Shown here piece by piece: positions 7,035 to 32,700 of a stretch of 64,000 nucleotides of DNA. The stretch is from contig JAKFVN010000005.1 in the NCBI GenBank assembly GCA_021732145.1, forward strand, positions 7,019-71,018. Direction: 5' to 3'. The notes beneath the pieces are model-generated. The model was not told the origin of the DNA. It did no database searches and saw nothing but the letters and a program-made list of their open reading frames with translations. A program made the translations under genes and the position numbers. The stretch is from Alphaproteobacteria bacterium. GTDB taxonomy: Bacteria > Pseudomonadota > Alphaproteobacteria > UBA9219 > RGZA01. The first letter of the stretch is position 1. Each line of letters opens with the position of its first letter.

Positions 7035-8863
7035 GCTGCGATTGCCTTGCTATTCTGGAATTCGAGAAGCGATTGCTGGACTTGTTTTAAGACAGGTGCC
7101 CAATCGCCCGAAACCGTTTGGCGGAACAGGCGCATGGTGGGGTACCACGGGCTGTCGGCTCTACCTAATAAATAGCGCCAATCGGCATCAACCGTTAGTA
7201 ATGTCCACACCGGCAGGCCCAGCGCGCCAGCCAAATGGGCGGGCGCGCTATCCACCGTTATCAGCAAATCAAGTTCAGCCAATGTCGCAGCACTGTCGGC
7301 CAACGTGTTGATTTTCTGTGCAAGATTGATGACACCGTATTGCTTCATCGTCTGCATATCTTTTTGTTCCGGTTTGAACTGCAAGCCATAAAAAGTGAAC
7401 CCTTGCATCGCCGTAATGTCTTTTAAAAGTTCAGGCGAATATGACCGCGCAAAGTTGCGTTTATGCGCAGGGTTGCCTGACCAGACGAGGCCAATTTTGA
7501 GGCCAGCACCTTCCAGCTTGTATTTTGCATCTCCCTTTTTGGGGTTGGGAATATAAGGTGCGTTTGCCGGAAGATTATTCATGGTGATGCCAAGATAACC
7601 CGGCAAATCCATCACGCCGCAGGCGCAGTCAACCTCCGGTGGAACATTTTTATTGTCGGCTTTCCATGACACAACTTGGCTTGGGCCATCCCAACCTTCC
7701 AATAGCGAATAAAGTTCCGGGCGCACATAAGCGAGCACATTCGCGCCGCGTTCTTTCAACAGCGGCATGAAGCGCAGCATTTGAAGAGTGTCGCCAAAGC
7801 CTTGCTCTTCCTGAACGGCAATCGTCTTGCCGTTTGGATTTTCGCCGTCCCAGCGTTCCACGTTTAAACGCATGCGCTTATATTTTTCCATCGCCGACCA
7901 GCGCCAGCCATAACGGCGGAACCCTTCCTGCAAATTGCCGTTAATCAGCAATGACATGGAACGGTTCCACGGCGCATCAATCTGCGCAGGGTTCATCATG
8001 AAGGTTTGCGCGTAATAGCAATCCGCCAGTTCCGGATTGTTGCGCGATAGCTGGACGGAACCCAGCATCAACTGCACTTCTTCCAAATCGGGTTCGTGTT
8101 GGTTGATTAAGCGCAGCACATAGCTGGCGCGTTGCAAATCAACGGTCAGGAAATAACTGGCCGCCACCGCCAGCAAACAATTGCGCGTTTGTTCATCGCG
8201 TGTATCCAGTTTGGGAATGCTTTCCAGATAATCGATAATATCCATGCCATTTGGCACGCCCAGTTTGATGCGCGCAATGCGCTGCGCGGCATCGAACGCG
8301 CCAAGGAAATCATTGTGTTCCAGCGCAATGTCATGCGCGCTGAACAGCAATTCCAGATTGGCAGGTTCCATCTTCAGCGCCATGTGCAATTGCGTTTTGG
8401 CGGATGGGTAATCGCTTAATTCGCTATACACCTGTGCCAGATTATTGTGGCATTGGATATGGCGCGGGGATTGTTGCAGCGCTTTCTTGTAGCTTTCCTT
8501 GGCAAAGGCGGGTTTGCCCAGTTTGCGTTGCGCATTGCCAAGATTATAAAGCGCGGCATCCCATTTCGGGGCGTAAGTGGTTGCTTTGGTGAACGAAGCT
8601 TCCGCGCTCACCACATCGCCCGATTTTTCATAGGCATTGCCGAGATGAAAATGAAACAGCGGTGCCTTCGCATCGATGGTGAGCGCTTGTTTAATCAGAG
8701 CAATCGCGTCTTGATGTTGGTTTTTGTACGAGAGGACGGAACCAAGCAGCGCCATGCCATCCGCATTGCGCGGTTCCTGATGCAGTAACAGACGATACGC
8801 GTTTTCCGCGTCATCCATCATGCCAGCTTGATGCAGGGCCATAGCACTCTGAAGTATATTCAT
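7031..8863 (-). CDS. TPR-repeat / GT9-like glycosyltransferase, tandem paralog of the 5184-7034 gene
   Basis: Same architecture and motifs as its neighbour (QEEQGFGDT ... DSAPAHLAGALGLPVWTL). Its stop overlaps the neighbour's start by 4 nt. Confidence 0.75.
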   Translation of the reverse strand: MNILQSAMALHQAGMMDDAENAYRLLLHQEPRNADGMALLGSVLSYKNQHQDAIALIKQALTIDAKAPLFHFHLGNAYEKSGDVVSAEASFTKATTYAPKWDAALYNLGNAQRKLGKPAFAKESYKKALQQSPRHIQCHNNLAQVYSELSDYPSAKTQLHMALKMEPANLELLFSAHDIALEHNDFLGAFDAAQRIARIKLGVPNGMDIIDYLESIPKLDTRDEQTRNCLLAVAASYFLTVDLQRASYVLRLINQHEPDLEEVQLMLGSVQLSRNNPELADCYYAQTFMMNPAQIDAPWNRSMSLLINGNLQEGFRRYGWRWSAMEKYKRMRLNVERWDGENPNGKTIAVQEEQGFGDTLQMLRFMPLLKERGANVLAYVRPELYSLLEGWDGPSQVVSWKADNKNVPPEVDCACGVMDLPGYLGITMNNLPANAPYIPNPKKGDAKYKLEGAGLKIGLVWSGNPAHKRNFARSYSPELLKDITAMQGFTFYGLQFKPEQKDMQTMKQYGVINLAQKINTLADSAATLAELDLLITVDSAPAHLAGALGLPVWTLLTVDADWRYLLGRADSPWYPTMRLFRQTVSGDWAPVLKQVQQSLLEFQNSKAIAA

Positions 8864-8905: not shown

Positions 8906-9805
8906 CTATCGGGCGGCGTGTTCGCGGCGGGGAACGTCGGCTGTCGTGTCGGCAATGGTCACGATTTCAATGCTTTGTTCATTGCGCGCTTTATAGCGGG
9001 TTTGCAGCCACATCACGCCGAATAAATCCATGATGCTGTCCAGTGCGCGTTTGAAATTGGTGTATTTCGATTGGCCGTGCGTGCGCTGGCGGTCATTGAC
9101 CGGAATATAAACGACATCATGCCCATACAGTTTGAACAAGGTGGGTTCATAACGGTGGATATTATCGAAATAGGGAAGGGCCAAATACGCATCGCGGCGG
9201 AATACTTTTAATGCGCAGCCGGTATCGGGGCAGTCGTCTTGCAATAATGCGCGGCGAACTGCATTGGCGAATTTGCTGGCGATGCGTTTGGAACCTGTTG
9301 CAGCGCGGTTCACGCGCACGCCGGAAACCAGAATGTTCTTATATGGATTGCTTTCCAGCGCAGTGGAAAGAAGGCGCGGAATATCGGCAGGGTCATTTTG
9401 CCCGTCGCCATCCATCGTAATAATCCATTCGCCGCGCGCATGACGAATGCCCGTCCACACGCCCTGGCTTTTTCCATAACGCGCCTGATGGCAGATAAGG
9501 CGGATGTTTGGGAAGCGGCGCATCGCGGTTTGAATTTCATCCGCTGTCGGGTCAGCGCTGTGGTCATCCACGAAAATGATTTCATAATTATTCTTTGTCC
9601 CATCTTTTTTAAAAAGAGGCAGGGTTTCCAAAACAGTGGTGATTTCCTGCGCCAGCGGCAGAATATTTCCCGCCTCATCCGCTACGGAAATAACAACCGA
9701 TACCAAACGGTCATGCGCTGCCCCGTTATGTGAAGGCGGAAAACCGGGGCGGTTTAATTGATGGGTTAAGGATTGAAAGGGGGCCATTTTATTTGACATG
9801 GTCAA
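8906..9805 (-). CDS. glycosyltransferase family 2 (polyprenyl-phosphate sugar transferase-like)
   Basis: GT2 motifs VVISV...EIIFVDDHS...MDGDGQNDP. Confidence 0.75.
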   Translation of the reverse strand: MTMSNKMAPFQSLTHQLNRPGFPPSHNGAAHDRLVSVVISVADEAGNILPLAQEITTVLETLPLFKKDGTKNNYEIIFVDDHSADPTADEIQTAMRRFPNIRLICHQARYGKSQGVWTGIRHARGEWIITMDGDGQNDPADIPRLLSTALESNPYKNILVSGVRVNRAATGSKRIASKFANAVRRALLQDDCPDTGCALKVFRRDAYLALPYFDNIHRYEPTLFKLYGHDVVYIPVNDRQRTHGQSKYTNFKRALDSIMDLFGVMWLQTRYKARNEQSIEIVTIADTTADVPRREHAAR

Positions 9806-9914: not shown

Positions 9915-9991
9915 GCACCCGTAGCTCAACTGGATAGAGCATCTGACTACGGATCAGAAGGTTAGAGATTCGAATTCTCTCGGGTGCACCA
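9915..9991 (+). tRNA. tRNA-Arg (anticodon ACG)
   Basis: A manual cloverleaf fold works: acceptor stem GCACCCG/CGGGTGC, D-arm GCTC..GAGC, anticodon loop CTACGGA, T-loop TTCGAAT, and 3' CCA. Confidence 0.9.
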
Positions 9992-10047
9992 TTTCCATTG
10001 AACAACTTGCATCGTTACAAAAGCGGTTTGTGCTATTCAAATCGACT

Positions 10048-10061
10048 TGTGCTATTCAATT
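10048..10061. repeat. 13-14-bp direct repeat tgtgctattcaat(t). Copies are at 10029-10040 (11/12 match), 10048-10061 and 11451-11464, and they flank the HAD gene.
   Basis: Exact string recurrence seen by eye. Confidence 0.6.
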
Positions 10062-10563
10062 GCTTTTTGGTGTAATTTTTCTCAATAAAATCAAATAGCC
10101 TTAAAGGCAAAATCTGTGAAATACAGATGCTCTAAATTTCCGTATAAAAGTTCGTTTGAACGAGTTGTTTAATGGTGTGCCTTACAAAGCACAATCTGTA
10201 GTCGGTTAGACTGCATGCAAAGGCATCCTTAAAACCCATTTAATTTGAGGTTTTTGATATCTTCTAAAGAAAAGTTAACTGGACGCTGTTTTTCTGCTCA
10301 GAATCTCAAAATATTTTTGGCTTTATAACTCAAATATGTATTACCATTTATTTATAAATAACCCGCGCCGTGCTGTGCTATGACCCGTAAGATATCTCTA
10401 TTAAAAACACAGACCAGATCTCCGTTTGAGTATGCATACGATAAGTCTGGCTATGTTGTATTAGAAGGTTTAGTAAGAAGAGATGCTAATACTGGGCAAT
10501 TAATTGCTAAAGCTTCCAGAGTTCTAAAAGATCCACCTAAAAACAAAAAAAAGTAACTTAGCT

Positions 10564-11448
10564 ATGCCAAACATCGCAATCGTTTGGGATTTTGATGGCA
10601 CGTTGTCGCCTGATGATTCAACGACAAAAGTCGTGGAAACATTACAAGGCGATGGTAAGGGCGGTCCTTTTTGGGATTATATTCATTCTCTGCGTGGAGA
10701 TAAAAATGATCCAGCAGAATGGGAGCATATTTTAGCCATGGATGCTCCTATTTGGATGTATTCACTTTCTAGATTGGCAGTACAAAAAAAAGTTCCGCTC
10801 AATAAAGAATTCTTTCAAAAATTTGTACTACCAAAAATCAAATTATTTCCAGAAGTCCCAAGTTTTCTTAAGGCTATAAAAAAGCTGGAAGAAGCGCCTG
10901 AATTTAAAAAAGTGAATCTGGAAATACATCACTTTATTGTTTCGGCTGGTTTAAAAGAATTAATTGAACAAGTTTTTCCAGAAGGGCTTATTAAATGGAC
11001 CTTTGGATGTAGGTACACAGTTGTAATCGATAAGTTGCATCCAGATGAGCCAGAAAGCGTCCCTGTATTTTGTATGGATGAAACGGTTAAGACCAGATCG
11101 TTATTTGAAATATCTAAAGGCGCATTTTGCAATCCAGAAATAAAAGTTAACTCACGAGTTGAGGATTCAAAATTGTGGGCTTCGTTTAATAACTTCATAT
11201 ACATTGGAGATGGCGATACAGATATCCCAGCGCTTTCATTGGTCAGAAGCAAAGGTGGAATGGGGGTGGCGTTGTATAATCCCGATGCACCAAAAGAAAA
11301 AGTTAAAGCAAGGCACAAATCAATGAGGCTAGATAAAAGAGCTGATATGATAACTGCGGCAGATTTTTCATCGAGCGGCGAGCTTTTTTCCTTCATAAAA
11401 ACGCGATGCATGCAAATACGGTATAGATATGAAGCAGCGCAGAATTAA
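10564..11448 (+). CDS. HAD-superfamily hydrolase in an AT-rich (about 38% GC) segment
   Basis: HAD motif I (VWDFDGTL) and motif IV (IYIGDGDTD). GC content is well below the 55% of the flanking genome. Confidence 0.65.
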   Translation: MPNIAIVWDFDGTLSPDDSTTKVVETLQGDGKGGPFWDYIHSLRGDKNDPAEWEHILAMDAPIWMYSLSRLAVQKKVPLNKEFFQKFVLPKIKLFPEVPSFLKAIKKLEEAPEFKKVNLEIHHFIVSAGLKELIEQVFPEGLIKWTFGCRYTVVIDKLHPDEPESVPVFCMDETVKTRSLFEISKGAFCNPEIKVNSRVEDSKLWASFNNFIYIGDGDTDIPALSLVRSKGGMGVALYNPDAPKEKVKARHKSMRLDKRADMITAADFSSSGELFSFIKTRCMQIRYRYEAAQN

Positions 11449-11565
11449 TCTGTGCTATTCAATTAAGACCAATCCAATACAAACAATGACTTAAACGGCG
11501 TAATATTGAAAATTTGTAGCACAAATTTTTTTGGCTATCCGATTGTAACAAAATAGATAATCAGC

Positions 11566-11616
11566 TTTTCGTAGGCTGACTACGGATCAGAAGGTTAGAG
11601 ATTCGAATTCTCTCGG
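11566..11616 (+). repeat. perfect 51-bp direct repeat of the tRNA-Arg 3' half (identical to 9943-9993). Candidate attR or att remnant.
   Basis: ctgactacggatcagaaggttagagattcgaattctctcgggtgcaccatt is present at both positions. Confidence 0.85.
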
Positions 11617-11662
11617 GTGCACCATTCTTTCAGGCACATCACGCATAATGCTTGGATTGTTG

Positions 11663-12010
11663 GGGAAATTAAAACCCGCAGCAGTGCCAGAATTTTGCTA
11701 ACACCAACCCTACTGCGGGCAGATCGTTCTGCTTGAACAGGAACGAAGCTTCAATATATACGCCGATTTGCATAAAAAGTCATCAGGCTAAATTGCCATG
11801 ATTTGCAAATAATTAGCTGGACGATTCATGGCAAGCGCGTAGATTCGGCGGTGCTAACACCACCAACCAATCCAGTGACAGAATTCATTTTTACTCAGAA
11901 TAGTTTGAACGGCGCATTGTCCATTCCGCTTTTGCGGGTTGATGGCTCACGTCTGCGCTAACCTATTCGGGTATGCATGCATCTTTCACTGGTAACAGTG
12001 CCGGGATTCC
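11663..12010 (+). promoter_or_regulatory. conserved leader module, copy 1, upstream of the GT28 gene. The 49-nt invariant stretch is at 11671-11719.
   Basis: Contains the stretch aaaacccgcagcagtgccagaattttgctaacaccaaccctactgcggg (an imperfect hairpin); a promoter-like ttgcat-N15-taaatt; cgctggacgattca; a second gctaacacc box followed by ccagtgacagaat; and the hairpin ccgcttttgcggg. Confidence 0.6.
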
Positions 12011-13306
12011 ATGACCCACCATTTTACCTTCGATGACCAAGCGCGGCCGGATGCCGCGCCTGCCAAGCCGCGCAAACTGCAATTATTTTTTTTTGATGCG
12101 GGCGGCGGGCACCGCAGCGCCGCAGAAGCGTTGATTGAAAGCGCAAAGGCGACTTATCCCAACTGGGATATCGAACTGATGAATTTGCAGGAACTGCTGA
12201 AGAAGACCGATCCTGTCTATCAGGTAACGGGATATCAGGCGGAAACGCTTTATAACGCGGCGATCAAGCGCGGCTGGACGTATGGCTCGCGGCCATTCCT
12301 GCGCGCGTTGCAACGCGGCATCCGCATGAATGCAGCGCCAATGAGAAAAGTACTGCGGGAGTATTTCGCGCAGTCAAAACCCGATTTAATCGTGTCGGTG
12401 GTTCCGAATTTCAACAAGGTGATGTTCGATGCACTGCGTGCAGTGCATGCGGATGTACCCTATGTGACCATTATGACGGATATTGCAGATAGCCCGCCGA
12501 ATTTCTGGATGGCAAACCAAGACCAGTACATGATTGTGGGCAGCCACAAGGCATTGTTGCAGGCGCATATGTCCGGCTTCTACAGGCCGGAGCGGATTTT
12601 TGAAACATCCGGCATGATTTTGCGGCCCGCGTTTTATAAAGATGTGTCGGATGCACCGTTGACGCATGAAACGATTGGCCTAGATCCCAATAAAAAGACA
12701 GCACTGATTATGTTTGGCGGCAATGGCGCGGTGGTTTCAAAAGAAATCGCGTTGAAGCTGCAAGCGCAGGGCATTCAAAGCATCGTGCTGTGCGGCCATA
12801 ACAAGGCATTGCTGGCGGATATGCAGGGCATTGAAGGGTGCCACGCGATTGGCTTTACCCAAAAGGTTGCCGATTACATGTGCCTCGCGAACTTCTTTGT
12901 TGGTAAGCCCGGCCCCGGCAGCATGACCGAAGCGTTGCATCTGGGGCTGCCGGTGATTATCGAAAACAATTCCCGCACGATGATACAGGAACGCTACAAC
13001 ATCATCTGGGCGGAAGAAAACAGGCTGGGCGTTTCCATCAAAAACTTTGCCCATATCGGCCGCGCCGCCACATTCTTGTTAAACAGCGGGCGGCTTGACC
13101 AACATATATCCAACGCCAACCGCCTGAATAACCGCGCGGTCTACGAAATTCCAAACATGCTGGAAAGCATTATGAATGCAAACCCCGTTTCGCGAGATAC
13201 ACAGCCGATTGTGCTGCCGGAACGCATGGCCGTGCGCGCAGGTGCGCGGCTTCGCGCCATGCTTCGAAGCAGGCCACATCATCAACCCCGAACCCCTTTT
13301 ATATAG
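12011..13306 (+). CDS. GT28-family glycosyltransferase, monogalactosyldiacylglycerol-synthase-like (candidate diacylglycerol glycosyltransferase)
   Basis: N-terminal FFFDAGGGHRSAAEAL matches the MGDG-synthase GGGHRASAEA motif. C-terminal GKPGPGSMTEALHLGLPVI matches the GT28 C-terminal motif. Confidence 0.75.
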   Translation: MTHHFTFDDQARPDAAPAKPRKLQLFFFDAGGGHRSAAEALIESAKATYPNWDIELMNLQELLKKTDPVYQVTGYQAETLYNAAIKRGWTYGSRPFLRALQRGIRMNAAPMRKVLREYFAQSKPDLIVSVVPNFNKVMFDALRAVHADVPYVTIMTDIADSPPNFWMANQDQYMIVGSHKALLQAHMSGFYRPERIFETSGMILRPAFYKDVSDAPLTHETIGLDPNKKTALIMFGGNGAVVSKEIALKLQAQGIQSIVLCGHNKALLADMQGIEGCHAIGFTQKVADYMCLANFFVGKPGPGSMTEALHLGLPVIIENNSRTMIQERYNIIWAEENRLGVSIKNFAHIGRAATFLLNSGRLDQHISNANRLNNRAVYEIPNMLESIMNANPVSRDTQPIVLPERMAVRAGARLRAMLRSRPHHQPRTPFI

Positions 13307-13323
13307 AAACGAATATTCAAGAC

Positions 13324-14580
13324 ATGACTGATACGACGCCTTTACTGCTGACCGATGGTGAACTGGATGCCTTGCACCGCAGATTGGAACCATTTGCCGG
13401 TGCCGATATGCCGGATACCGATTTACCCATTCACGAATTCCGCACCGCGTTTATGTCGGATTTGCATTTGGGGCGGCCCGATAGCAAGACCGATAAACAA
13501 TCCATTTTTTTAGACCGTGCGCGGCTTTCCAACAAAATCATCATCAATGGTGACTTCATTGATTACTGGTTGTTCCGCGCATCACGCCCGCAGCATCTGG
13601 GCCGCATTTTCAAAGATGATACGCATATGCGCACTGCTGTGAAATTTTTAAAGCTGGCGGCGCATGTGGGTTTTCGCCTGGTAAAGTGGGAAGTGTTCAA
13701 GCCATCGGGCGATGAAACCATGCGCTGGGAACAATCGCATAATATCCCGCTGCAAAAACTGCTGCGCATATTGCGCAAAGTGCCGGGCATTTTCGTGCCC
13801 GGAAACCATGATGAAATCTTCCGCGGCTTTACCAATGAATTGCATTTAATGGGCGGGGATGTCGCCGCATTGGCTACAGCGAAAAACGGTGCGCCAATTG
13901 ACTCCAAATTGCGCAATGCGTATTTCAAAAGCCCGTCGCTGGGCAATATGGATGTGCTGGAAGAATTCGTGTATGAAACCATGTCGGGCGAGCATATGCA
14001 TGTGTGCCACGGCGATAAATTCGATAATCCCATGAAAAAATCCAGCGCGCTGGGCATGATGGCAACCTGCGTTTATCACAACGGCATTGCGCCGCTGGTG
14101 CGCAATCTCGGCTTTCCTGAAACGGCATCATCCATGACTGATTATGTGAACAGCATGGATGGCAAAAAGGACATGACGAAGTATTACGATCGCTACGCTG
14201 AATTTCTGGGTAATCAAAATGCAGCTATTGTGGAGCATAACCGTGCGCATCCTGACCAAAAGCCGCGCCCATTACTGCGCGGCGGCATTCATGGCCATAT
14301 TCATAATCCCGGTATTTTTCACCATCGCGGCTATGTATTTATCGATAGCGGCGATTGGGTGGATGATGCGCATTGCACCGCTGCCGTCGAGCATCGCGAT
14401 GGGTCATGGCAGATTATGACGGTCAATCGGGAGAAGGGGATACATCCGCATCCTGTTACGCCGGAACGCGTGCAGCTATTCCAAAACCGCAGCGCATTAT
14501 CGCCCATTCCCAAACAACGTCCGCCGCGTCCCGATGTGGGGTGGATGACGCCCGGTGCAACGATGGAGGCACGGCTATGA
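13324..14580 (+). CDS. calcineurin-like metallophosphoesterase (PlcP-like phospholipase C candidate)
   Basis: Metallophosphoesterase motifs MSDLHLG, NGDFIDYW and VPGNHD. Confidence 0.75.
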   Translation: MTDTTPLLLTDGELDALHRRLEPFAGADMPDTDLPIHEFRTAFMSDLHLGRPDSKTDKQSIFLDRARLSNKIIINGDFIDYWLFRASRPQHLGRIFKDDTHMRTAVKFLKLAAHVGFRLVKWEVFKPSGDETMRWEQSHNIPLQKLLRILRKVPGIFVPGNHDEIFRGFTNELHLMGGDVAALATAKNGAPIDSKLRNAYFKSPSLGNMDVLEEFVYETMSGEHMHVCHGDKFDNPMKKSSALGMMATCVYHNGIAPLVRNLGFPETASSMTDYVNSMDGKKDMTKYYDRYAEFLGNQNAAIVEHNRAHPDQKPRPLLRGGIHGHIHNPGIFHHRGYVFIDSGDWVDDAHCTAAVEHRDGSWQIMTVNREKGIHPHPVTPERVQLFQNRSALSPIPKQRPPRPDVGWMTPGATMEARL

Positions 14581-15428
14581 ACCATAAGAAATCACTTATC
14601 CTGCTTTTGGATATTGATGGCACATTGGTTGATACCGATGCGCATTTAAGCCATGCGATGACCGCGCAATTTGGAAAATACGGCTTGGCATTCGAACCGC
14701 ATGAATTTTTTGAGCCCAAGGCATTCACGATGCCCAATAAAGACGGGGTGATGGAGGTTAAAACCACCATGCTGTTCGGTGCATCATGGGAAATCAATTA
14801 TTATTATCTGAAATCAGAAATTCCCGATGTACCGGTGGATGTGCAAACCTTCCGCAAGGAAATCGTGGAACGCGTGACCAGCAACCATGATGGCGTGATG
14901 CCGCGCCGCGATGTTATTGAAGCCGTATTGGAATTGCGCGCGCATTGCGAAGCGAATGACATAGGTTTTGCTGCTGTTGCCGTTACCAATGGCGCAGGCA
15001 GCGAAGCCAACGCAAATCTGAAAATCGTGAAAGCCGCAGGATTAGTGGTGGATGGGCTGGTTAATGCCGATGATGTGGAAATTCCATATCGCAAGCCGCA
15101 CCCCAAGCCGTATCAGATGGGATATAACATTGCCCGCGCTGTATTGCGCCACAAAGGATATGATGCAGAAGGTGCATGCATTGTTGCGATGGAAGATAGC
15201 CCGCCGGGCGCGCGCAGCGCATTGGCGGCCGGCGAAATATATGACGGCGTGTGTTATTATATTCCCACAACCAAACGCAAAATGCTGATGCCGGAAATGA
15301 CCGATGCGCAATTGGAGCGTTTTGTAGTGCAGCAGGATATATCAGCGCTTGGCATGCATATTAAAACGCAATTGCATGGCAGAGGGGAGCGCGCAGCAAT
15401 GCAATTTGAGAAGCGTGCAGCGTTATAA
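14577..15428 (+). CDS. HAD-superfamily hydrolase / phosphatase
   Basis: HAD motif I LLLDIDGTLVDTD. Its start overlaps the upstream stop (ATGA). I chose the internal ATG at 14577 rather than the longer ORF from 14373. Confidence 0.7.
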   Translation: MNHKKSLILLLDIDGTLVDTDAHLSHAMTAQFGKYGLAFEPHEFFEPKAFTMPNKDGVMEVKTTMLFGASWEINYYYLKSEIPDVPVDVQTFRKEIVERVTSNHDGVMPRRDVIEAVLELRAHCEANDIGFAAVAVTNGAGSEANANLKIVKAAGLVVDGLVNADDVEIPYRKPHPKPYQMGYNIARAVLRHKGYDAEGACIVAMEDSPPGARSALAAGEIYDGVCYYIPTTKRKMLMPEMTDAQLERFVVQQDISALGMHIKTQLHGRGERAAMQFEKRAAL

Positions 15429-15438
15429 ATTTTATGTG

Positions 15439-15810
15439 GGGGAATTTAAAACCCGCAGCAGTGCCAGAATTTTGCTAACACCAACCCTACTGCGGGCAGA
15501 CATTCTCGCTAAACAAGAATGAAGCAATTAGATATAAGATGATTTGCATAAAAAGTCGATGAGGTAAATTGATACGAAAGTAAAATTATTCGCTGGACGA
15601 TTCAGTCAAATAATATAAATTTCATGTTGCTAACACCAACAACAACCAGTGACGGAATACCCTACTCAATTTGAAAATTATGGCATGGCAGGTTTACCCG
15701 CTTTAGCGGGGTGATTTGCATCGGCATTTTTAACAACAGAACGCGCAGGAATTGCGTTTTCTGCATGTGTGGGCGCGTGTTTTTGAACTGGCAACATTGC
15801 CGGAATACGA
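15439..15810 (+). promoter_or_regulatory. conserved leader module, copy 2, upstream of the four-gene operon. The 49-nt stretch is at 15447-15495.
   Basis: Same ordered blocks as copy 1: the 49-nt stretch, ttgcat-N15-taaatt, cgctggacgattca, gctaacaccaacaacaaccagtgacggaat, the hairpin cccgctttagcgggg, and attgccggaatacga immediately before the ATG. Confidence 0.6.
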
Positions 15811-16776
15811 ATGTCCCCTGATGCGAATTTACGGGAACGTGCGGAGCTTTGCCCAGAACCCAGCAGAGCATTGCCATTAGATGGGCAAGCTGCGCGTCGT
15901 CCACATGAAGTGATTTATACGCCAGCGCTCGCTGAAGCTATTCCTGATCCTCAATTGCAACGTATACCTCCGGGGCATGGGCTGGTGATGGTTGGCGAGA
16001 AGAAGCGCGCAATTGTTTTTCGTGACCATAGCAGCCGTGAAAACGTTCGCCGCACGCGCCAGACCTTGGCGCTGTGCGAACGTTATCATTATGATGTGTT
16101 GGTTGTTGACCCAGCGCGCGGGCAGCATGACGTGTTGCTGGATAAACGCGCGCAGGAATTTCTGCGCATAGACCGCGATTTACCGCTGATTACGCTGCAA
16201 ACTCCGCAATTAAGCAGGGAGCAGATGCTGAGCTGGCTGTTCAGTGCCAATACCAATATGGTACTGGAAGTTGCCAAGGACGGCCTGCGTATTCTGGCGG
16301 ATAGCCATGTGGATGCGCCATACGCGCAGAAAAAACTAAACCGCAATACGGATGTGATTGGCGTGAGCACGCATGAACGTTTGACGGATGATACCAAACA
16401 TCATGCACTCACATCATCTTACTTGATTATCGCAATTGATGAAACGCATGCGCAGCAACTTATCCGCAGTTATGGCACGGCGCATGCGGTGGTACATGGC
16501 GGGCATTCGCATGATTGTCAGCAAATTTCCGAAATGGCAGCGCGCACAGATAAAAAAGTTGCCGTATTCCACCCCGACCCGCCGCAACGTTTACAGCATG
16601 CAGGAAAAATAAGCTTATCGCGCCTTCGCGCCGATAACGCCGTGGTGATTACCACCACGCCGGACATGATCCGCGCATTGAAAGATCTTTCCAGGCCAAC
16701 GGGAGGCGCGCCGTTTTTTGCGCAGCGTCCCGGAACGCGTAACGGAGGAATGGTTCACGCCCCGCAAGTTTTATAA
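15811..16776 (+). CDS. hypothetical protein (321 aa), first gene of the large operon
   Basis: ORF directly downstream of leader copy 2. No motif recognised. Confidence 0.55.
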   Translation: MSPDANLRERAELCPEPSRALPLDGQAARRPHEVIYTPALAEAIPDPQLQRIPPGHGLVMVGEKKRAIVFRDHSSRENVRRTRQTLALCERYHYDVLVVDPARGQHDVLLDKRAQEFLRIDRDLPLITLQTPQLSREQMLSWLFSANTNMVLEVAKDGLRILADSHVDAPYAQKKLNRNTDVIGVSTHERLTDDTKHHALTSSYLIIAIDETHAQQLIRSYGTAHAVVHGGHSHDCQQISEMAARTDKKVAVFHPDPPQRLQHAGKISLSRLRADNAVVITTTPDMIRALKDLSRPTGGAPFFAQRPGTRNGGMVHAPQVL

Positions 16777-16805
16777 GGGCGTTTTTTGTTAAGTGAGGTT
16801 TGCTG

Positions 16806-19800
16806 ATGAGTAAAACCGACCCGTTGCACATTGCAGACGCCGCGCGTGATGTTGCGCAGCGTAAAAAAGACAAATCATTCAATTTGTTTTCGCCGGATTA
16901 TTGTTTGCAATTGCTGGGGCTGGATGGCGCGGTGAAGCCATTACCCAAAAACGAGCCGGTTATTCTAAGCGATGGCGCTATTGACCCGCGCACGGGCGGG
17001 GGCGTTGTCTTAAAAACAATGCTTAAGCTCGATGAACATAAGCGCCTGCGCAGCCTTGAGGCATTATATATGTCATTGCAGCCCAATGGGCGGTATGTGG
17101 TCAGCAAATTGGCAGAATTATCGTTCCGTGCTTATCCCAGCTATCTCGTATTACAGCAAGCCAGCATTCTTGGGCGCGGCATTAATCCGGATCATACCGA
17201 CCGCGTGCTGCGTTTATTTGGCGCGTTGCAACGCATGCATACCGATATTCGCAATATGAATTTTCCGGATGTTGGAAAAATCATGGATGAGTTCCAGATT
17301 TCCGCATTGATTGGTGAGCGGTTGCATCTGCCCGGCATGTCCGCCAAAGGCGGATTTGATTTTCAGGCACCGATTGATTTACCGGTTAGCGCGGGCGCAC
17401 CGCTATTGCCACGCGATTTCCTTCCCGAGCTGCTGGGCCTTGGCCGCAATGATTTGGAGCCGATGTATGATTTTGGCGATGGCCGTGCCAAGACAGAAAT
17501 CGATAGGCAACATGGCGCTATCCATAATTTCAAGGCCAATCTGGTGGCCGATGCCACGCAAGGATCGTTGATTGCGGTAACCACGCCGCATAATGCACGG
17601 CATGGCAGTGCGATTACCGATTTGATCAAGGTAGGCTGGCGGTTGAAGGGCGATCATGCATTACTCGACCAGTTTGTATTGCTCGGCGAAGAAAGCCGCA
17701 GCCTGCCAGCCGCGCAATTGCAAAAGCGCATCGGCATTGTGAACAAGGCGATGAAGAATTTGCGCATGCGCCGTTACCCGCATGTGCTGGATTACATCGC
17801 GGAATATGACCAGCGCGATTTGGTGGATAAGCGCGCGCTGACGGGCATGGTTGATGAGCACAAGCAAATGATTGTCGTGCCCTTTGGCGGGCATAATGAC
17901 CGCGAATATCTGCCGGGCTTTGGCGCGACGATTGGCGGCAATTGCAAAGGTATTTTTACCTATTGGCGCGATGCGAATGGGCAGGTGCAGCGCAAGGGCG
18001 TTATCATCGATATGGGAATTATTTTTAGTAAGAACCATGCGGTGCAAGCGAGCGAGCAAGGCAATTGGGATTACGTGGTTCCCGATATTGTGAATTACCT
18101 CAACGATATCGACCATTTTTTTGCCACGCATTTACACGCTGACCATCTGGATGGATATATCGATTACATTGCGCGCGGCTTGATGCAGGGAAAGCATCTC
18201 CACGCCACTGCCTTCGTATGCCGCGTGCTGGAACAAAAGCTGAAGAAACGCAAAGTACCGCAGGAACGCTGGCCGCACATGCACACGCTGAAAGGCAAGG
18301 GCTTTGTGCATATTGCGGCGGGCGATGAGCGCGTGATGTCGGTTTATTATGCGGCCGACAGCATTCCGCACAGCACCGATAACACGCCGTATCTCGTACT
18401 GCCCGCGCCATATCGCTGCGATACCAAAGGTGTGCCAAAAGAGAAAGCTGTCACCGTCAATCCGCATTACTGGGTTTATGGCAATATGGGCGATACCAGT
18501 TTCGGGCGTTATAATTTGCCGGATTACGAAGGTGAGAAACCGCCCGATACCGGTTTCTCGCAAGATTTGCTGCGCATCTTTAAAAAAAATCTGGGCGGCG
18601 AATACAATGGCATTGCCAAAGCATCGCAAGCTGCGTTTGGCAAAGTGCATTTCATGGAGTGCGATCCCACATCCATTCACCGTGACGGCTTTGCGCCCGA
18701 TGTAGTGGATGTGGAGCAAAACCTTTGCTGTCTCAATGAATGGTTTTCGGATAAGGGGCTTATCCTGTTGGGTTTAAGTACAGCAAAGCGTCAGGATGAA
18801 ATGTGCCTGCGCTTTGCCAATCATTCGCAGCGCGATGTATCGGTATTTGGTGCGTATAAGGAAGACCGCTTCACTGATATGAGCGTGATGGGCGTGAACA
18901 CCAATGTGCTGGCGCGTAATCCGGCTGGAAAAAATGTGCAGGCGTATCTGGATTGGCATGGCGGCAGCAAAGGCGTGGTGCCCGTTAAATATTTCCGCCG
19001 CACCGCAAAGGAATGGCATGGCATTGTGGATGCGGATGTTAGCCGCGTGCTCATCCTTGGCACCGGCAGTCAGGGTACCGATATTGAAAAGGATGCGTTT
19101 GGCACGCAACTTGCGGAATTCCGCTCGCTTTTGCAAATGGATCCCAAATATCGCCCAACCGCGTTTGGCAAGGATTTGCGGAATTTCTTGGTTGTATATG
19201 CGCAGGGCGCCATTCCTGGGAATGAAGAAACGCAATATGCGCAAATTAAGAAAACTGCGATTGAGCTGGATATCACCGTTGCTGTTTCCGTGCATGAAGG
19301 CGCGCGGTTTTATAATGTAAAGGAATCGTATCTCTCGCGCATTGTTCAGGATTTGGAACGGCGCGGCGAACGCTTCACGCGCGAACCCAATAACGGCTTG
19401 TTCATTCAAAAATTTGCGCTCTACCCGCCGGGTCATGGCTGGAAGGAAGATTACCGCCAGGGCGTATTCCCGTGGATGAAGAAAAATGGCGTGGGCATGA
19501 TTTCCGCGCAGCATTTCGGCAAATTGGAATCCCCGCGCATCACGCATGAATTAGCGCGCGAGGCGGGCTTGCGTCACCCCAATGAAGCGATTTCAAACCA
19601 CACCGCCTTTTCAATGCGTGATGGCGGAAAACGCCTCGAAATTATCGGGCAGTTGCCGCCATCCTTTATTTTGGCGCGGCAAAACCGCCGCGCCGATAAA
19701 TATCATGGGGGCACGGCAGAATATAAGCGCGTGGTGGTCGCAGCGGGGCAGGTGGGTGCATCGCTTGGCGGGCTATTTGCCAACACCAACACGGTCTATA

Positions 19801-19994
19801 CGCAGGATTTCGGGAATGAAGATTACGACCGCGTGCTGTCGGAGGCGCAATGGCTGCCCGCCAAGCGCACGCGCCGCGATATTCATGCGGCACTCACCGA
19901 ATTGCCGCCGGAACTCGCCGCACGGCGCAATTTGCCAACGGCGGGCATGCGCACGCCCGCGCTTCCGCAGCATGATCATCTGGAGTTTGCCTGA
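16806..19994 (+). CDS. large hypothetical protein (about 1062 aa) with a metallo-beta-lactamase-fold signature, possibly beta-CASP-like
   Basis: HxHxDH motif (FATHLHADHLDG) followed by candidate MBL motifs IPHSTD and NMGD. A ribosome-binding site GTGAGGT precedes the ATG at 16806. Confidence 0.6.
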   Translation: MSKTDPLHIADAARDVAQRKKDKSFNLFSPDYCLQLLGLDGAVKPLPKNEPVILSDGAIDPRTGGGVVLKTMLKLDEHKRLRSLEALYMSLQPNGRYVVSKLAELSFRAYPSYLVLQQASILGRGINPDHTDRVLRLFGALQRMHTDIRNMNFPDVGKIMDEFQISALIGERLHLPGMSAKGGFDFQAPIDLPVSAGAPLLPRDFLPELLGLGRNDLEPMYDFGDGRAKTEIDRQHGAIHNFKANLVADATQGSLIAVTTPHNARHGSAITDLIKVGWRLKGDHALLDQFVLLGEESRSLPAAQLQKRIGIVNKAMKNLRMRRYPHVLDYIAEYDQRDLVDKRALTGMVDEHKQMIVVPFGGHNDREYLPGFGATIGGNCKGIFTYWRDANGQVQRKGVIIDMGIIFSKNHAVQASEQGNWDYVVPDIVNYLNDIDHFFATHLHADHLDGYIDYIARGLMQGKHLHATAFVCRVLEQKLKKRKVPQERWPHMHTLKGKGFVHIAAGDERVMSVYYAADSIPHSTDNTPYLVLPAPYRCDTKGVPKEKAVTVNPHYWVYGNMGDTSFGRYNLPDYEGEKPPDTGFSQDLLRIFKKNLGGEYNGIAKASQAAFGKVHFMECDPTSIHRDGFAPDVVDVEQNLCCLNEWFSDKGLILLGLSTAKRQDEMCLRFANHSQRDVSVFGAYKEDRFTDMSVMGVNTNVLARNPAGKNVQAYLDWHGGSKGVVPVKYFRRTAKEWHGIVDADVSRVLILGTGSQGTDIEKDAFGTQLAEFRSLLQMDPKYRPTAFGKDLRNFLVVYAQGAIPGNEETQYAQIKKTAIELDITVAVSVHEGARFYNVKESYLSRIVQDLERRGERFTREPNNGLFIQKFALYPPGHGWKEDYRQGVFPWMKKNGVGMISAQHFGKLESPRITHELAREAGLRHPNEAISNHTAFSMRDGGKRLEIIGQLPPSFILARQNRRADKYHGGTAEYKRVVVAAGQVGASLGGLFANTNTVYTQDFGNEDYDRVLSEAQWLPAKRTRRDIHAALTELPPELAARRNLPTAGMRTPALPQHDHLEFA

Positions 19995-25572: not shown

Positions 25573-25604
25573 TGGATTGGGCAATCGAGTGAGTTAGGAT
25601 TTTC

Positions 25605-25944
25605 GAGGACTAAAAACCCGCAGCAGTGCCAGAATTTTGCTAACACCAACCCTACTGCGGGTCATTGCGTTCTGAACGTTGAAGCAGAACGAACCTTCAT
25701 ATTTATGCTGATTTGCCTAAAGAGTCGATATGGAAAATTGATACGAAAGTAAAATAATTCGCTAGACGATTCATTTTATTCGGGTAAGTTTTGCGTCGCT
25801 AACACCACTAAACCAGTGACAGAATCACTATCTGAACATGCATGTGGCACAATGTGATTACCCGCTTTAGCGGGGTAGTCTTGCGCCAAGCTTGATGTGC
25901 ATGTGGATAACTTTCTGGCATTGGCACAATTGCCGGAATATCCA
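25605..25944 (+). promoter_or_regulatory. conserved leader module, copy 3. The 49-nt stretch is at 25613-25661.
   Basis: Same blocks as copies 1 and 2, including the hairpin cccgctttagcgggg at 25861-25875 and caattgccggaatatcca immediately before the ATG at 25945. Confidence 0.6.
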
Positions 25945-32433: not shown

Positions 32434-32447
32434 GGGGAGTTAATCAT

Positions 32448-32625
32448 TGGAGCGGGGATGAGGATTCGAACCCTGTGCCGCTTTGCGGCACGTATAAATT
32501 TGTCGAGGGTTCCTGACAACTACCGCTAGCTCTCAATGGAGCGGGGATGAGGATTCGAACCCTGTGCCGCTTTGCGGCACGTATAAATTTGTCGAGGGTT
32601 CCTGACAACTACCGCTAGCTCTCAA
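32448..32625. repeat. two tandem 89-bp direct repeats (32448-32536 and 32537-32625). Each begins with a tRNA-Gly-3'-end-like segment and contains a perfect 7-bp hairpin gtgccgc-ttt-gcggcac.
   Basis: The two units are identical by eye. Their first roughly 27 nt resemble the T-arm and acceptor 3' end of the adjacent tRNA-Gly (tggagcggg...attcgaaccct). A manual fold of either unit into a full cloverleaf failed. Confidence 0.7.
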
Positions 32626-32700
32626 TGGAGCGGGCGAAGGGATTCGAACCCTCGACCCTAACCTTGGCAAGGTTATGCTCTACCCCTGAGCTACGCCCGC
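32626..32700 (-). tRNA. tRNA-Gly (anticodon GCC)
   Basis: The reverse complement GCGGGCGTAGCTCAGGGGTAGAGCATAACCTTGCCAAGGTTAGGGTCGAGGGTTCGAATCCCTTCGCCCGCTCCA folds as a cloverleaf with anticodon loop TTGCCAA. Confidence 0.9.

What the first reader, a model, noticed from the sequence alone, without database searches (positions are those of the whole stretch)
12011..15428. GT28 MGDG-synthase-like glycosyltransferase, metallophosphoesterase and HAD phosphatase: a candidate phospholipid-to-glycolipid remodelling module
A diacylglycerol-glycosyltransferase-like enzyme (GGGHRSAAEAL and GKPGPGSMTEALHLGLPVI) sits directly upstream of a calcineurin-like metallophosphoesterase (MSDLHLG, GDFIDYW, GNHD) and a translationally coupled HAD hydrolase. 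In alphaproteobacteria and SAR11, phosphate starvation induces a metallophosphoesterase phospholipase C (PlcP) that releases diacylglycerol. A neighbouring glycosyltransferase then converts the diacylglycerol to phosphorus-free glycolipids. A PhoH-like gene and a second HAD phosphatase also sit in this region, which fits a phosphate-stress theme. The gtgacag element in each leader copy is the reverse complement of a CTGTCAC Pho-box half-site. That is only one half-site, so it is a weak hint.
Basis: partly seen in the sequence, partly recalled or inferred. Interest (0 to 1): 0.6.

Follow-up and report, generated by a model that had tools for sequence, protein, structure and literature searches.

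The report
Glycolipid operon with divergent PlcP-like phosphoesterase
An uncultured alphaproteobacterium carries a conserved three-gene operon that most likely converts phospholipid into phosphorus-free glycolipid, a known strategy with unusual parts, and nothing here shows that phosphate controls it.

Summary
Three co-directional genes sit at 12011-15428: a GT28 glycosyltransferase, a metallophosphoesterase (MPE) and a HAD phosphatase that overlaps the MPE stop codon (ATGA).

The glycosyltransferase is a full-length homologue of plant MGD1 and of a processive diacylglycerol glucosyltransferase. It is not MurG.

The MPE keeps every metal-binding motif and the PlcP-type GNHDE. Its nearest solved fold is LpxH, and the genome has its own LpxI. 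It scores far better on a PlcP profile than E. coli LpxH does. However, it is only 25-30% identical to canonical plcP-agt-linked proteins, carries three insertions and forms a separate rare clade. It is PlcP-like but not a demonstrable PlcP orthologue.

Supporting points:
- The trio is syntenic in four relatives.
- Canonical plcP is translationally coupled to a GT28 of this family in Variovorax.

The phosphate-regulation part is not supported:
- No tandem Pho box exists.
- The "gtgacag" is variable and lies in a predicted stem.
- The second HAD sits on a foreign low-GC islet.

The operon instead carries one of three copies of a conserved ~370-nt leader that also precedes two operons of mostly unknown function.

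Verdict: a new variant of a known kind, of moderate interest.

The parts
11658..12010 (+). Leader copy 1 (~350 nt) directly upstream of the GT start. It contains a hairpin (CCCGCAG...CTGCGGG), two GCTAACACCA boxes, CCAGTGACAGAAT, a second hairpin (CCGCTTTTGCGG) and CTGGTAACAGTGCCGG next to the ATG.
   Evidence: Three-copy alignment A1 has 75% mean column identity. GCTAACACCA gives 6 hits against 0.1 expected. The leader is conserved upstream of the GT in L001 and L089.
12011..13306 (+). GT28 glycosyltransferase of the MGDG-synthase/UgtP family (431 aa). Predicted diacylglycerol glycosyltransferase.
   Evidence: Pfam MGDG_synth 1.6e-6, above cut-off. PDB 4wyi MGD1 2e-20 over residues 19-384, and 9wde processive DAG beta-glucosyltransferase 7e-17. 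NCBIfam diglucosyl-DAG synthase 1e-20, MurG 0.0088. GGGH and GKPGPGS...QERYN are invariant across relatives.
13324..14580 (+). Long-form LpxH/PlcP-superfamily metallophosphoesterase (418 aa). Predicted lipid phosphodiesterase (phospholipase C-like).
   Evidence: D46, H48, D77, N161, H162, H229, H325 and H327 are invariant in A2, with three insertions relative to the ~280-aa PlcPs. It scores 135 bits on a PlcP HMM, against 41 for EcLpxH. The AF2 model has pLDDT 79.6, with a helical cap at 236-308. The nearest solved folds are LpxH, 8e-7 to 1e-5.
14577..15428 (+). Clade-specific HAD-IA phosphatase (283 aa), translationally coupled to the MPE.
   Evidence: ATGA overlap plus GGAGG. Pfam Hydrolase 6.7e-8. 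Motifs DIDGT, T137, K173 and ED206-207 are invariant. Only 11 clusters were found in 5.8 billion proteins. The AF2 model has pLDDT 89.5. The nearest folds are BT2127 pyrophosphatase, beta-PGM and sugar phosphatases.
15435..15810 (+). Leader copy 2. It starts with a hairpin at 15452-15496, 24 nt after the HAD stop, which may terminate the operon. It precedes the operon of 321-aa, 1064-aa, 1103-aa and 756-aa ORFs (15811-25572).
25600..25940 (+). Leader copy 3. It precedes the operon of a 381-aa ORF, an ATP-grasp protein, PhoH (28144-29424) and a dienelactone-hydrolase-like protein.
   Evidence: The same gene set follows the trio directly in L001 and L089.

Best explanation
This is a three-gene operon for making a phosphorus-free glycosyl-diacylglycerol at the expense of phospholipid. 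It is a variant of the PlcP-glycosyltransferase lipid-remodelling pathway.

Proposed steps:
1. The long-form PlcP-like MPE, a binuclear-metal enzyme with an LpxH-like helical lipid cap, cleaves the phosphodiester of a membrane glycerophospholipid. This gives diacylglycerol plus a phospho-head group.
2. The GT28 enzyme, a relative of MGD1 and UgtP, transfers a hexose from a UDP-sugar to the diacylglycerol.
3. The co-translated HAD-IA phosphatase hydrolyses the soluble phosphorylated product (phosphoethanolamine, phosphocholine, glycerol-3-P or a similar small phosphoester). The phosphorus ends up as free phosphate.

What is shown: gene order, coupling, synteny, family assignments and intact catalytic motifs.

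What is inferred: the lipid substrate of the MPE, the acceptor and sugar of the GT, and the HAD substrate.

The inducing signal is unknown. Expression is probably set by a conserved ~370-nt leader shared with two other operons, not by a recognisable Pho box.
For: - GT: full-length homology to MGD1 and a processive DAG glucosyltransferase, with the GGGH motif conserved, and not MurG.
- MPE: all metallophosphoesterase ligands and GNHDE are present (LpxH has GNRD). It scores 135 bits on an HMM built from 71 canonical PlcPs, against 41 for E. coli LpxH. LpxH is the nearest solved fold, with a helical cap in the same topological position.
- The ~280-aa relatives are bona fide plcP. About 55 of 80 loci carry an Agt-like GT4 gene immediately downstream, and GT4 fusions exist.
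- Canonical plcP is overlapped (ATGA) by a GT28 that is 38-39% identical to the window GT in Variovorax L013 and L058.
- The literature reports plcP next to a UgtP-like DAG glycosyltransferase in type Ia methanotrophs (PMC9239053).
- The trio is syntenic in L001, L002, L089 and L090.
- In L089 the GT is 64% and the HAD 55% identical to the window proteins, yet the MPE slot holds a 25%-identical long-form homologue. The slot is conserved although the sequence is not.
- The genome's own LpxI sits in the lpxA-lpxI-lpxB cluster, so the MPE is not needed for lipid A.
Against: - The MPE is only 25-30% identical to canonical PlcPs and is not nested among them.
- Its cap sequence, the part expected to bind lipid, is strongly diverged.
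- No PlcP structure exists for comparison, and TM-scores to LpxH are low at 0.27-0.49.
- Close GT homologues (50-56% identity) are solitary in other proteobacteria, so the GT does not need a dedicated phospholipase.
- No HAD gene accompanies canonical plcP in the 80 loci.
- The HAD's fold neighbours are a pyrophosphatase, beta-PGM and sugar phosphatases, not phosphocholine phosphatases.
- There is no Pho box.
- The co-regulated operons encode mostly unknown proteins, some with nucleic-acid-type domains.
Confidence: 0.5

Rival explanations
1. This reading has the same chemistry but not a phosphate-starvation module. The operon makes a glycolipid constitutively or under another signal (envelope stress, host association, growth phase). 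Its expression is set by the shared leader, together with the two neighbouring operons.
For: - No tandem Pho box is present.
- The leader is shared with operons for giant unknown proteins and for ATP-grasp/PhoH, and is conserved in relatives.
- The close GT homologues are stand-alone genes in many proteobacteria.
Against: - Every characterised PlcP-glycosyltransferase pathway is induced by phosphate limitation (PMC4796936, PMC8528852, PMC9239053).
- The co-regulated and syntenic genes are rich in phosphohydrolases: the HAD, a second Metallophos in L002 and a 5'-nucleotidase in L089. That would suit phosphorus scavenging.
- An unrecognised PhoB site, or a phosphate-responsive leader, cannot be excluded.
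Confidence: 0.25
2. The MPE acts on a different lipid or nucleotide-lipid pyrophosphate, for example CDP-diacylglycerol or a UDP-linked lipid, in the manner of LpxH. The HAD then removes the remaining phosphate (a phosphatidate-phosphatase-like or pyrophosphatase role). Diacylglycerol for the GT would come from a biosynthetic intermediate rather than from mature phospholipid.
For: - LpxH, a UDP-diacylglucosamine pyrophosphatase, is the nearest solved fold.
- The best NCBIfam and structural neighbours of the HAD include the BT2127 inorganic pyrophosphatase.
- The cap of the MPE is highly diverged from canonical PlcP.
Against: - The MPE has GNHDE, not the GNRD of LpxH.
- It scores 18.5 bits on the LpxH equivalog model against a cut-off of 134.
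- The genome has LpxI.
- The MPE scores three times higher on the PlcP profile than LpxH does.
- The HAD has no membrane segment and no lipin-like features.
Confidence: 0.12
3. The module is not a membrane-lipid module. The GT glycosylates a soluble or polymer acceptor. The MPE and HAD process nucleotides or nucleic-acid breakdown products, as part of a larger nucleic-acid or nucleotide turnover system encoded by the leader-linked operons (RNase J-like MBL protein, PhoH ATPase, ATP-grasp protein, 5'-nucleotidase).
For: - The leader is shared with operons holding a weak MBL/RNase J-like domain and PhoH.
- L089 adds a 5'-nucleotidase and an AdoHcyase-like gene.
- Metallophosphoesterases include many nucleases.
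Against: - The GT's homology is specifically to DAG glycosyltransferases over its full length.
- The MPE's nearest relatives and folds are lipid enzymes (PlcP, LpxH). Nucleases such as Mre11 and PolD DP1 rank lower.
- No defence-system model matches.
- The plcP-GT28 pairing recurs in unrelated bacteria.
Confidence: 0.1
4. The MPE is simply the organism's LpxH for lipid A synthesis, as JGI annotates its homologues.
For: JGI names homologues 'UDP-2,3-diacylglucosamine pyrophosphatase LpxH'. LpxH is the top structural hit.
Against: - An LpxI gene sits between lpxA and lpxB in the same window (6e-61, full length).
- The LpxH model score of 18.5 bits is far below the cut-off of 134.
- The MPE has GNHDE rather than GNRD.
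- The gene is in an operon with a DAG glycosyltransferase, not with lipid A genes.
Confidence: 0.03

Closest known systems
PlcP-Agt lipid-remodelling pathway (Sinorhizobium meliloti SMc00171, Phaeobacter MED193_17359, SAR11 HTCC7211, P. aeruginosa PA3219-PA3218, Methylosinus trichosporium)
   Same: An LpxH-related Mn-type metallophosphoesterase sits in one operon with a diacylglycerol glycosyltransferase. It has the same catalytic motifs (DxH, GD, GNHDE, HGD, GHxH, GDWV) and a helical cap in the same position. The host is an alphaproteobacterium.
   Different: - The glycosyltransferase is GT28 (MGD1/UgtP type), not GT4 (Agt).
- The gene order is GT-MPE, not plcP-agt.
- The MPE is 418 aa with three insertions, 25-30% identical and outside the canonical clade.
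- A HAD phosphatase is added.
- No Pho box is present.
plcP next to a UgtP-like (GT28) DAG glycosyltransferase: type Ia methanotrophs (noted in PMC9239053) and Variovorax sp. JS1663
   Same: It pairs a PlcP-superfamily enzyme with a GT28 lipid glycosyltransferase. The Variovorax GT is 38-39% identical to the window GT and is translationally coupled to plcP.
   Different: Those loci have a canonical ~290-aa PlcP, the order plcP then GT, and no HAD. None has been tested experimentally.
LpxH (UDP-2,3-diacylglucosamine diphosphatase; PDB 8qk5, 5b49, 5k8k)
   Same: It is the nearest solved fold. It has a calcineurin-like core with an inserted helical lipid-binding cap.
   Different: LpxH has GNRD rather than GNHDE and is about 240 aa. 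The window protein scores 18.5 bits against a cut-off of 134 on the LpxH model. The genome uses LpxI.
Plant phosphate-starvation lipid remodelling (NPC4/5 phospholipase C + MGD2/3 + HAD-type phosphoethanolamine/phosphocholine phosphatase PECP1), and P. aeruginosa PlcH + PchP. Both are recalled from general knowledge, not tested here.
   Same: The logic has the same three activities: a phospholipase C, a GT28 MGDG synthase (a direct homologue of the window GT) and a HAD phosphatase acting on the released phospho-head group.
   Different: The plant and Pseudomonas phospholipases C belong to other families. PECP1 and PchP belong to other HAD subfamilies, and neither appears among the fold neighbours of the window HAD. 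Those genes are not in one operon.

Membership tests
PlcP (metallophosphoesterase phospholipase C of lipid remodelling) | Complete metallophosphoesterase metal-ligand motifs with GNH(D/E) | tested here: met
   D46, H48, D77, N161, H162, D163, H229, H325 and H327 are invariant in A2. The motif is GNHDE as in canonical PlcPs, whereas E. coli LpxH has GNRD.
PlcP (metallophosphoesterase phospholipase C of lipid remodelling) | Orthology: groups with characterised or canonical PlcPs, which are 46-51% identical to one another | tested here: not met
   The window MPE is 25-30% identical to plcP-agt-linked proteins, including those of Agrobacterium. In a neighbour-joining (NJ) tree of 259 columns, the window family (bootstrap 100) and the canonical PlcP clade (bootstrap 100) are separate, and the deeper order is unresolved. 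No characterised PlcP sequence was available for a direct comparison.
PlcP (metallophosphoesterase phospholipase C of lipid remodelling) | Closer to PlcP than to LpxH | tested here: met
   On an HMM of 71 canonical PlcPs the window MPE scores 135 bits and E. coli LpxH 41 bits. On the NCBIfam LpxH model the window MPE scores 18.5 bits, against 43-61 bits for canonical PlcPs.
PlcP (metallophosphoesterase phospholipase C of lipid remodelling) | Operon or neighbourhood with a gene for phosphorus-free lipid synthesis (agt, pgt, btaAB) | tested here: met
   A GT28 DAG-glycosyltransferase homologue lies 17 nt upstream, and the arrangement is syntenic in four relatives.
PlcP (metallophosphoesterase phospholipase C of lipid remodelling) | Pho box upstream or induction by phosphate limitation | tested here: not met
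   CTGTCAYN4CTGTCAY with up to 3 mismatches gives 9 hits in the window against 8.3 expected, and none lies in a leader. Induction itself is not testable with these tools.
PlcP (metallophosphoesterase phospholipase C of lipid remodelling) | Mn-dependent release of diacylglycerol from PC, PE or PG | not testable with these tools
   This needs an enzyme assay.
LpxH | Passes the NCBIfam equivalog model and is the sole UDP-diacylglucosamine hydrolase of the genome | tested here: not met
   The MPE scores 18.5 bits against a cut-off of 134. LpxI lies at 56805-57629 between lpxA and lpxB.
LpxH | LpxH-like fold (calcineurin core plus helical cap) | tested here: met
   The top four Foldseek PDB hits are LpxH, at 8e-7 to 1.4e-5, with TM(target) 0.44-0.49.
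GT28 diacylglycerol glycosyltransferases (MGD1 / UgtP-YpfP) | MGDG_synth N-terminal domain plus GT28 C-terminal domain, with full-length homology to characterised members | tested here: met
   PF06925 scores 28.8 bits against a cut-off of 25. PF04101 scores 20.5 against 22, just below. MGD1 matches at 2e-20 over residues 19-384, and a processive DAG beta-glucosyltransferase at 7e-17.
GT28 diacylglycerol glycosyltransferases (MGD1 / UgtP-YpfP) | GGGH(R) motif aligned with the MGD1 'GGGHRASAEA' segment, and the GPG...QE nucleotide-sugar motif | tested here: met
   DAGGGHRSAAEAL aligns with DTGGGHRASAEAI, and GKPGPGSMTEA with TKAGPGTIAEA. Both are invariant in A3. The catalytic role of the His is recalled from the MGD1 literature and was not tested.
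GT28 diacylglycerol glycosyltransferases (MGD1 / UgtP-YpfP) | Orthologue of UgtP (NCBIfam diglucosyl-DAG synthase equivalog) | tested here: not met
   The GT scores 74 bits against a cut-off of 500. It is the same family but a different subfamily.
MurG | Passes the TIGR01133 equivalog model | tested here: not met
   The GT scores 15.1 bits against a cut-off of 250, E 0.0088.
HAD-IA phosphatases | Motifs I-IV (DxDxT, T/S, K, E/D-D) and a C1 cap | tested here: met
   D12-I-D14-G-T16, T137, K173 and E206-D207 are invariant. PF00702 scores 33.6 bits against a cut-off of 26.4. The fold neighbours are HAD-IA enzymes (BT2127, beta-PGM, CbbY) at about 1e-9.
HAD-IA phosphatases | Substrate is a phospho-head group (phosphoethanolamine, phosphocholine or glycerol-3-P) | not testable with these tools
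   No specific family is matched. The best PDB sequence hit is a pseudouridine-5'-phosphatase at 9e-4.

The most novel reading that the evidence does not exclude
The three conserved ~370-nt leaders mark a previously undescribed regulon, possibly controlled by a structured 5' RNA rather than by PhoB. This regulon would switch on membrane phospholipid-to-glycolipid conversion together with two operons of giant unknown proteins, an RNase J-like MBL protein, PhoH, an ATP-grasp enzyme and, in relatives, a 5'-nucleotidase. Together these would form a Pho-box-independent programme that mines both lipids and nucleic acids for phosphorus. Within it, the GT28 / long-form PlcP-like / HAD trio would be a self-contained cassette that releases inorganic phosphate from phospholipid.
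Probability: 0.12. Interest if true: 0.75.

Novelty: new variant of a known kind. Interest (0 to 1): 0.4.

Why it matters
PlcP-type lipid remodelling is a major way in which marine and soil bacteria save phosphorus. plcP is also used as a marker of phosphorus stress in metagenomes.

This locus shows a divergent long form of the enzyme that BLAST-based plcP surveys (e-value below 1e-40 to MED193 PlcP) would miss. It is paired with a plant-type GT28 glycolipid synthase and a dedicated HAD phosphatase. That phosphatase could complete the recovery of phosphate from the head group, a step not assigned to any gene in bacterial PlcP operons.

If confirmed, this would widen the sequence space of the pathway and give a three-enzyme cassette for study.

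The shared leader is a separate lead towards an unknown regulatory element.

Tried and rejected
1. **Pho box.** A tandem-repeat scan with up to 3 mismatches gave chance-level hits, none in the leaders. Rejected.
2. **Apparent PlcP-GT28 fusion in Variovorax.** This was an out-of-frame shadow ORF in high-GC DNA. The real arrangement is two overlapping genes.
3. **Direct comparison with a characterised PlcP.** No sequence was obtainable. The key biochemistry paper (Wei et al. 2018, PMC6052262) is not held, and NCBIfam has no PlcP model. Canonical plcP-agt loci from named genomes, including Agrobacterium, were used as proxies.
4. **Genome-contig scan.** It found no close relative of the MPE.
5. 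**afdb50 fold search.** The library was unavailable.
6. **Guess that the 1103-aa protein starts with an ExoI-like exonuclease motif.** BLASTP against E. coli SbcB gave E 2.9. Not supported.
7. **PADLOC defence models.** No match for 10 proteins of the three operons.
8. **Rfam.** No family matches the leader.
9. **Exact-pattern scan of JGI metagenomes for the leader core.** It returned 35 stretches, and none was homologous to the leader by blastn.
10. **Other long-form MPEs (P0222, P0223).** They have no glycosyltransferase neighbour.
11. **Sigma-54 reading of TGGCA...TTGCC next to the start codons.** The spacing is 3 nt too short by eye. Dropped.

Full report
**Observation**

The window is a chromosome segment of an uncultured alphaproteobacterium. 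Exact matches are NCBI MAG proteins labelled Alphaproteobacteria bacterium, and the source contig is 774,651 bp.

Three co-directional ORFs fill 12011-15428.
- A 431-aa glycosyltransferase at 12011-13306.
- A 418-aa metallophosphoesterase (MPE) at 13324-14580, starting 17 nt after the GT stop.
- A 283-aa HAD hydrolase at 14577-15428. Its ATG overlaps the MPE stop (ctATGAac) and is preceded by GGAGG.

Pfam gives MGDG_synth (28.8 bits, cut-off 25), Metallophos (22.8, cut-off 21.5) and Hydrolase/HAD_2.

**The glycosyltransferase**

phmmer against PDB sequences matches only two chains. One is Arabidopsis MGD1 (2e-20, residues 19-384). The other is a processive diacylglycerol beta-glucosyltransferase (7e-17).

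NCBIfam gives diglucosyl-DAG synthase at 1e-20, well below its equivalog cut-off. MurG appears only at 0.0088. DAGGGHRSAAEAL aligns with the GGGHRASAEA segment of MGD1, and GKPGPGS...QERYN aligns with the nucleotide-sugar region.

The protein therefore belongs to the lipid (DAG) glycosyltransferase branch of GT28. It is not MurG and not a UgtP orthologue.

It has thousands of relatives. Proteins of about 380 aa at 50-56% identity are common in proteobacteria and are annotated as MGDG-synthase family. In four large contigs these stand alone, with no phosphoesterase nearby.

**The phosphoesterase**

Only nine 90%-identity clusters, at 51-100% identity and about 400 aa, resemble it closely. After them, identity drops to at most 30%, in proteins of 270-300 aa that JGI labels LpxH. 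Some of these are fused to GT4 domains.

A profile of the nine sequences was searched against 1.84 billion cluster representatives. It finds essentially one cluster, and the next hit is at 6.6e-32.

The ~280-aa proteins are canonical PlcP. In about 55 of 80 named loci (Rhizobiales, Rhodospirillales, Burkholderiales, including Agrobacterium tumefaciens) an Agt-like GT4 gene follows immediately. This is the plcP-agt arrangement described in PMC4796936, PMC8528852 and PMC9239053.

Alignment A2 shows that all metal ligands are invariant, and the motif is GNHDE. E. coli LpxH has GNRD.

Relative to canonical PlcP, the window family differs in four ways:
- an N-terminal extension;
- insertions at roughly residues 88-133, 176-208 and 258-271;
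- a strongly diverged sequence in the region between motif IV and motif V;
- that region nevertheless has similar length.

An HMM built from 71 canonical PlcPs scores the window MPE at 135 bits and E. coli LpxH at 41 bits. The NCBIfam LpxH model gives the window MPE 18.5 bits against a cut-off of 134.

The AlphaFold model has mean pLDDT 79.6. It shows the calcineurin-like core with a helical cap at 236-308, and the first insertion is predicted with low confidence. The four best Foldseek PDB hits are LpxH structures (8e-7 to 1.4e-5). PptH, PolD DP1 and GpdQ follow. No PlcP structure exists.

A lipid A role is unnecessary, because the window has LpxI between lpxA and lpxB.

A rough neighbour-joining (NJ) tree recovers the window family and canonical PlcP as separate clades, each with bootstrap 100. 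The deeper order is unresolved. The protein is thus PlcP-like in active site, fold class and context, but it fails an orthology test.

Other long-form relatives of 350-430 aa exist. They share a GR(L/I)F segment after motif II and a GI(V/H)P(H/Y)P tail. The two examined are not next to glycosyltransferases.

**The HAD**

Motifs I-IV are intact. Only 11 clusters exist, all from the same clade and mostly on the same contigs as the MPE. In one relative the HAD stands alone (L088).

The model has pLDDT 89.5. It most resembles HAD-IA enzymes with a C1 cap: BT2127 pyrophosphatase, beta-phosphoglucomutase, CbbY and sugar phosphatases. The best PDB sequence hit is a pseudouridine-5'-phosphatase at 9e-4.

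Its substrate cannot be inferred. That it acts on the head group released by the MPE is an inference from the translational coupling.

**Conservation and precedents**

The GT-MPE-HAD order recurs in L001 (MPE 76% identical), L002 (58%) and L089/L090.

In L089 the GT is 64% and the HAD 55% identical to the window proteins, but the MPE (P0224) is only 25% identical. The operon keeps a long-form PlcP-like enzyme in that slot even though the sequence has been replaced or has diverged sharply. This argues that the activity is what is conserved.

In Variovorax sp. JS1663 (L013) and a Variovorax MAG (L058), a canonical 292-aa plcP is overlapped (ATGA) by a GT28 gene 38-39% identical to the window GT. 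An apparent fusion there was an out-of-frame ORF artefact. A Planctomycetota MAG (L030) has a more distant GT28 gene downstream of its plcP.

PMC9239053 notes that type Ia methanotrophs have plcP next to a Bacillus UgtP-like DAG glycosyltransferase. The PlcP + GT28 pairing is therefore known as a genomic pattern but has not been characterised.

**Regulation and the phosphate theme**

A tandem Pho-box pattern with up to three mismatches gives nine hits in 64 kb against 8.3 expected. None lies in the upstream regions.

The operon is preceded by one of three homologous ~370-nt leaders, at 11658-12010, 15435-15810 and 25600-25940, with 75% mean column identity.
- The second leader heads an operon of 321-, 1064-, 1103- and 756-aa proteins. 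These have no family assignment beyond a weak MBL/RNase J-like stretch.
- The third leader heads a 381-aa ORF, an ATP-grasp enzyme, PhoH and a dienelactone-hydrolase-like protein.

The leaders are conserved in L001 (three copies) and L089 (two copies) in front of the equivalent genes.

Each leader carries GCTAACACCA twice, giving 6 hits against 0.1 expected.

It is predicted to pair with an invariant TCGCTGG about 55 nt upstream.

Across the eight copies, four hairpins are 92% paired, against at most 53% when the partners are slid. Five pairs show compensatory changes, against 1.6 in shuffles. This is suggestive but thin. No Rfam family matches.

The second HAD (10564-11448) sits in a 1.6-kb, 38% GC islet bounded by a perfect 51-bp repeat of the tRNA-Arg 3' half. 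It is therefore an unrelated insertion.

The phosphate-stress framing has no direct support. The only indirect hints are two. Characterised PlcP pathways are induced by phosphate limitation. The syntenic genes include several phosphohydrolases: a second Metallophos in L002 and a 5'-nucleotidase in L089.

**Mechanism and verdict**

The most likely mechanism (confidence about 0.5) has three steps. The MPE cleaves a membrane phospholipid to DAG plus a phospho-head group. The GT28 enzyme glycosylates the DAG. The HAD then liberates phosphate.

The family assignments, motifs, coupling and synteny are shown. The substrates and the inducing signal are inferred.

The rivals are:
- the same chemistry under a non-phosphate signal;
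- an LpxH-like pyrophosphatase step on a nucleotide-lipid, followed by a HAD phosphatase;
- a non-lipid role tied to the co-regulated operons;
- plain LpxH, which is effectively excluded.

This is a new variant of a known kind, of moderate interest. The shared leader is the more unusual feature and deserves its own follow-up.

Noticed in passing
window 11658-12010, 15435-15810, 25600-25940; L001 496-840, 4206-4470, 8150-8460; L089 7290-7557, 10920-11293: Three copies of a ~370-nt leader precede three different operons, and the leader is conserved in two related genomes. Each copy has GCTAACACCA twice (6 hits against 0.1 expected), four predicted hairpins with some compensatory changes, and a GGCAA..TTGCC palindrome abutting the start codon. 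There is no Rfam match. It is a candidate new cis-regulatory element or regulon.
   Followed up: partly
window 9915-11626: A tRNA-Arg(ACG) gene at 9915-9991 is followed by a 1.6-kb, 38% GC islet. The islet ends in a perfect 51-bp repeat of the tRNA 3' half (9943-9993 and 11576-11626). It carries only a HAD-IB-like ORF (10564-11448) and no integrase. It looks like the remnant of an element integrated at the tRNA.
   Followed up: partly
window 32444-32700: Two tandem 89-nt repeats, 99% identical (32444-32532 and 32533-32621), lie directly beside tRNA-Gly(GCC) at 32626-32700 (-). The start of each repeat resembles the tRNA's 3' end. They may be decayed tRNA-like duplications.
   Followed up: no
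window 16800-25572; L001 9497-13347; L002 8030-13066: Three large ORFs of 1064, 1103 and 756 aa have overlapping stops and starts. They have no Pfam, PADLOC or PDB sequence match, apart from a weak metallo-beta-lactamase/RNase J-like stretch in the first. They are conserved next to the trio in relatives.
   Followed up: partly
L089 7555-10849 (GCA_964568585.1): In this syntenic trio the GT is 64% and the HAD 55% identical to the window proteins, but the middle MPE is only 25% identical. This is either in-place replacement by another long-form PlcP-like gene or extreme divergence.
   Followed up: partly
L089 11291-19480: After the leader that follows the trio, this relative has genes for a 196-aa protein, a 489-aa protein, a 5'-nucleotidase (PF06189), an AdoHcyase-like protein, a 360-aa protein, an ATP-grasp protein and PhoH. 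The leader-linked ATP-grasp/PhoH operon therefore gains nucleotide-metabolism genes.
   Followed up: no
window 5184-7034 and 7031-8863 (-): Tandem paralogues of about 610 aa have N-terminal TPR repeats and, in one of them, a weak C-terminal GT9 (heptosyltransferase-like) match. A GT2 gene follows at 8906-9805.
   Followed up: no
window 56805-57629: The LpxI homologue between lpxA and lpxB matches the NCBIfam LpxI model over its full length (6e-61). Its score of 206 bits is well below the equivalog cut-off of 400, so it is a divergent LpxI.
   Followed up: no
L004 and L005 (GT homologue P0147): A stand-alone GT28 homologue (48% identical to the window GT) is flanked on both sides by ABC transporters with Phosphonate-bd (PF12974) binding proteins. 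This is a faint phosphorus-related context for the GT family elsewhere.
   Followed up: no
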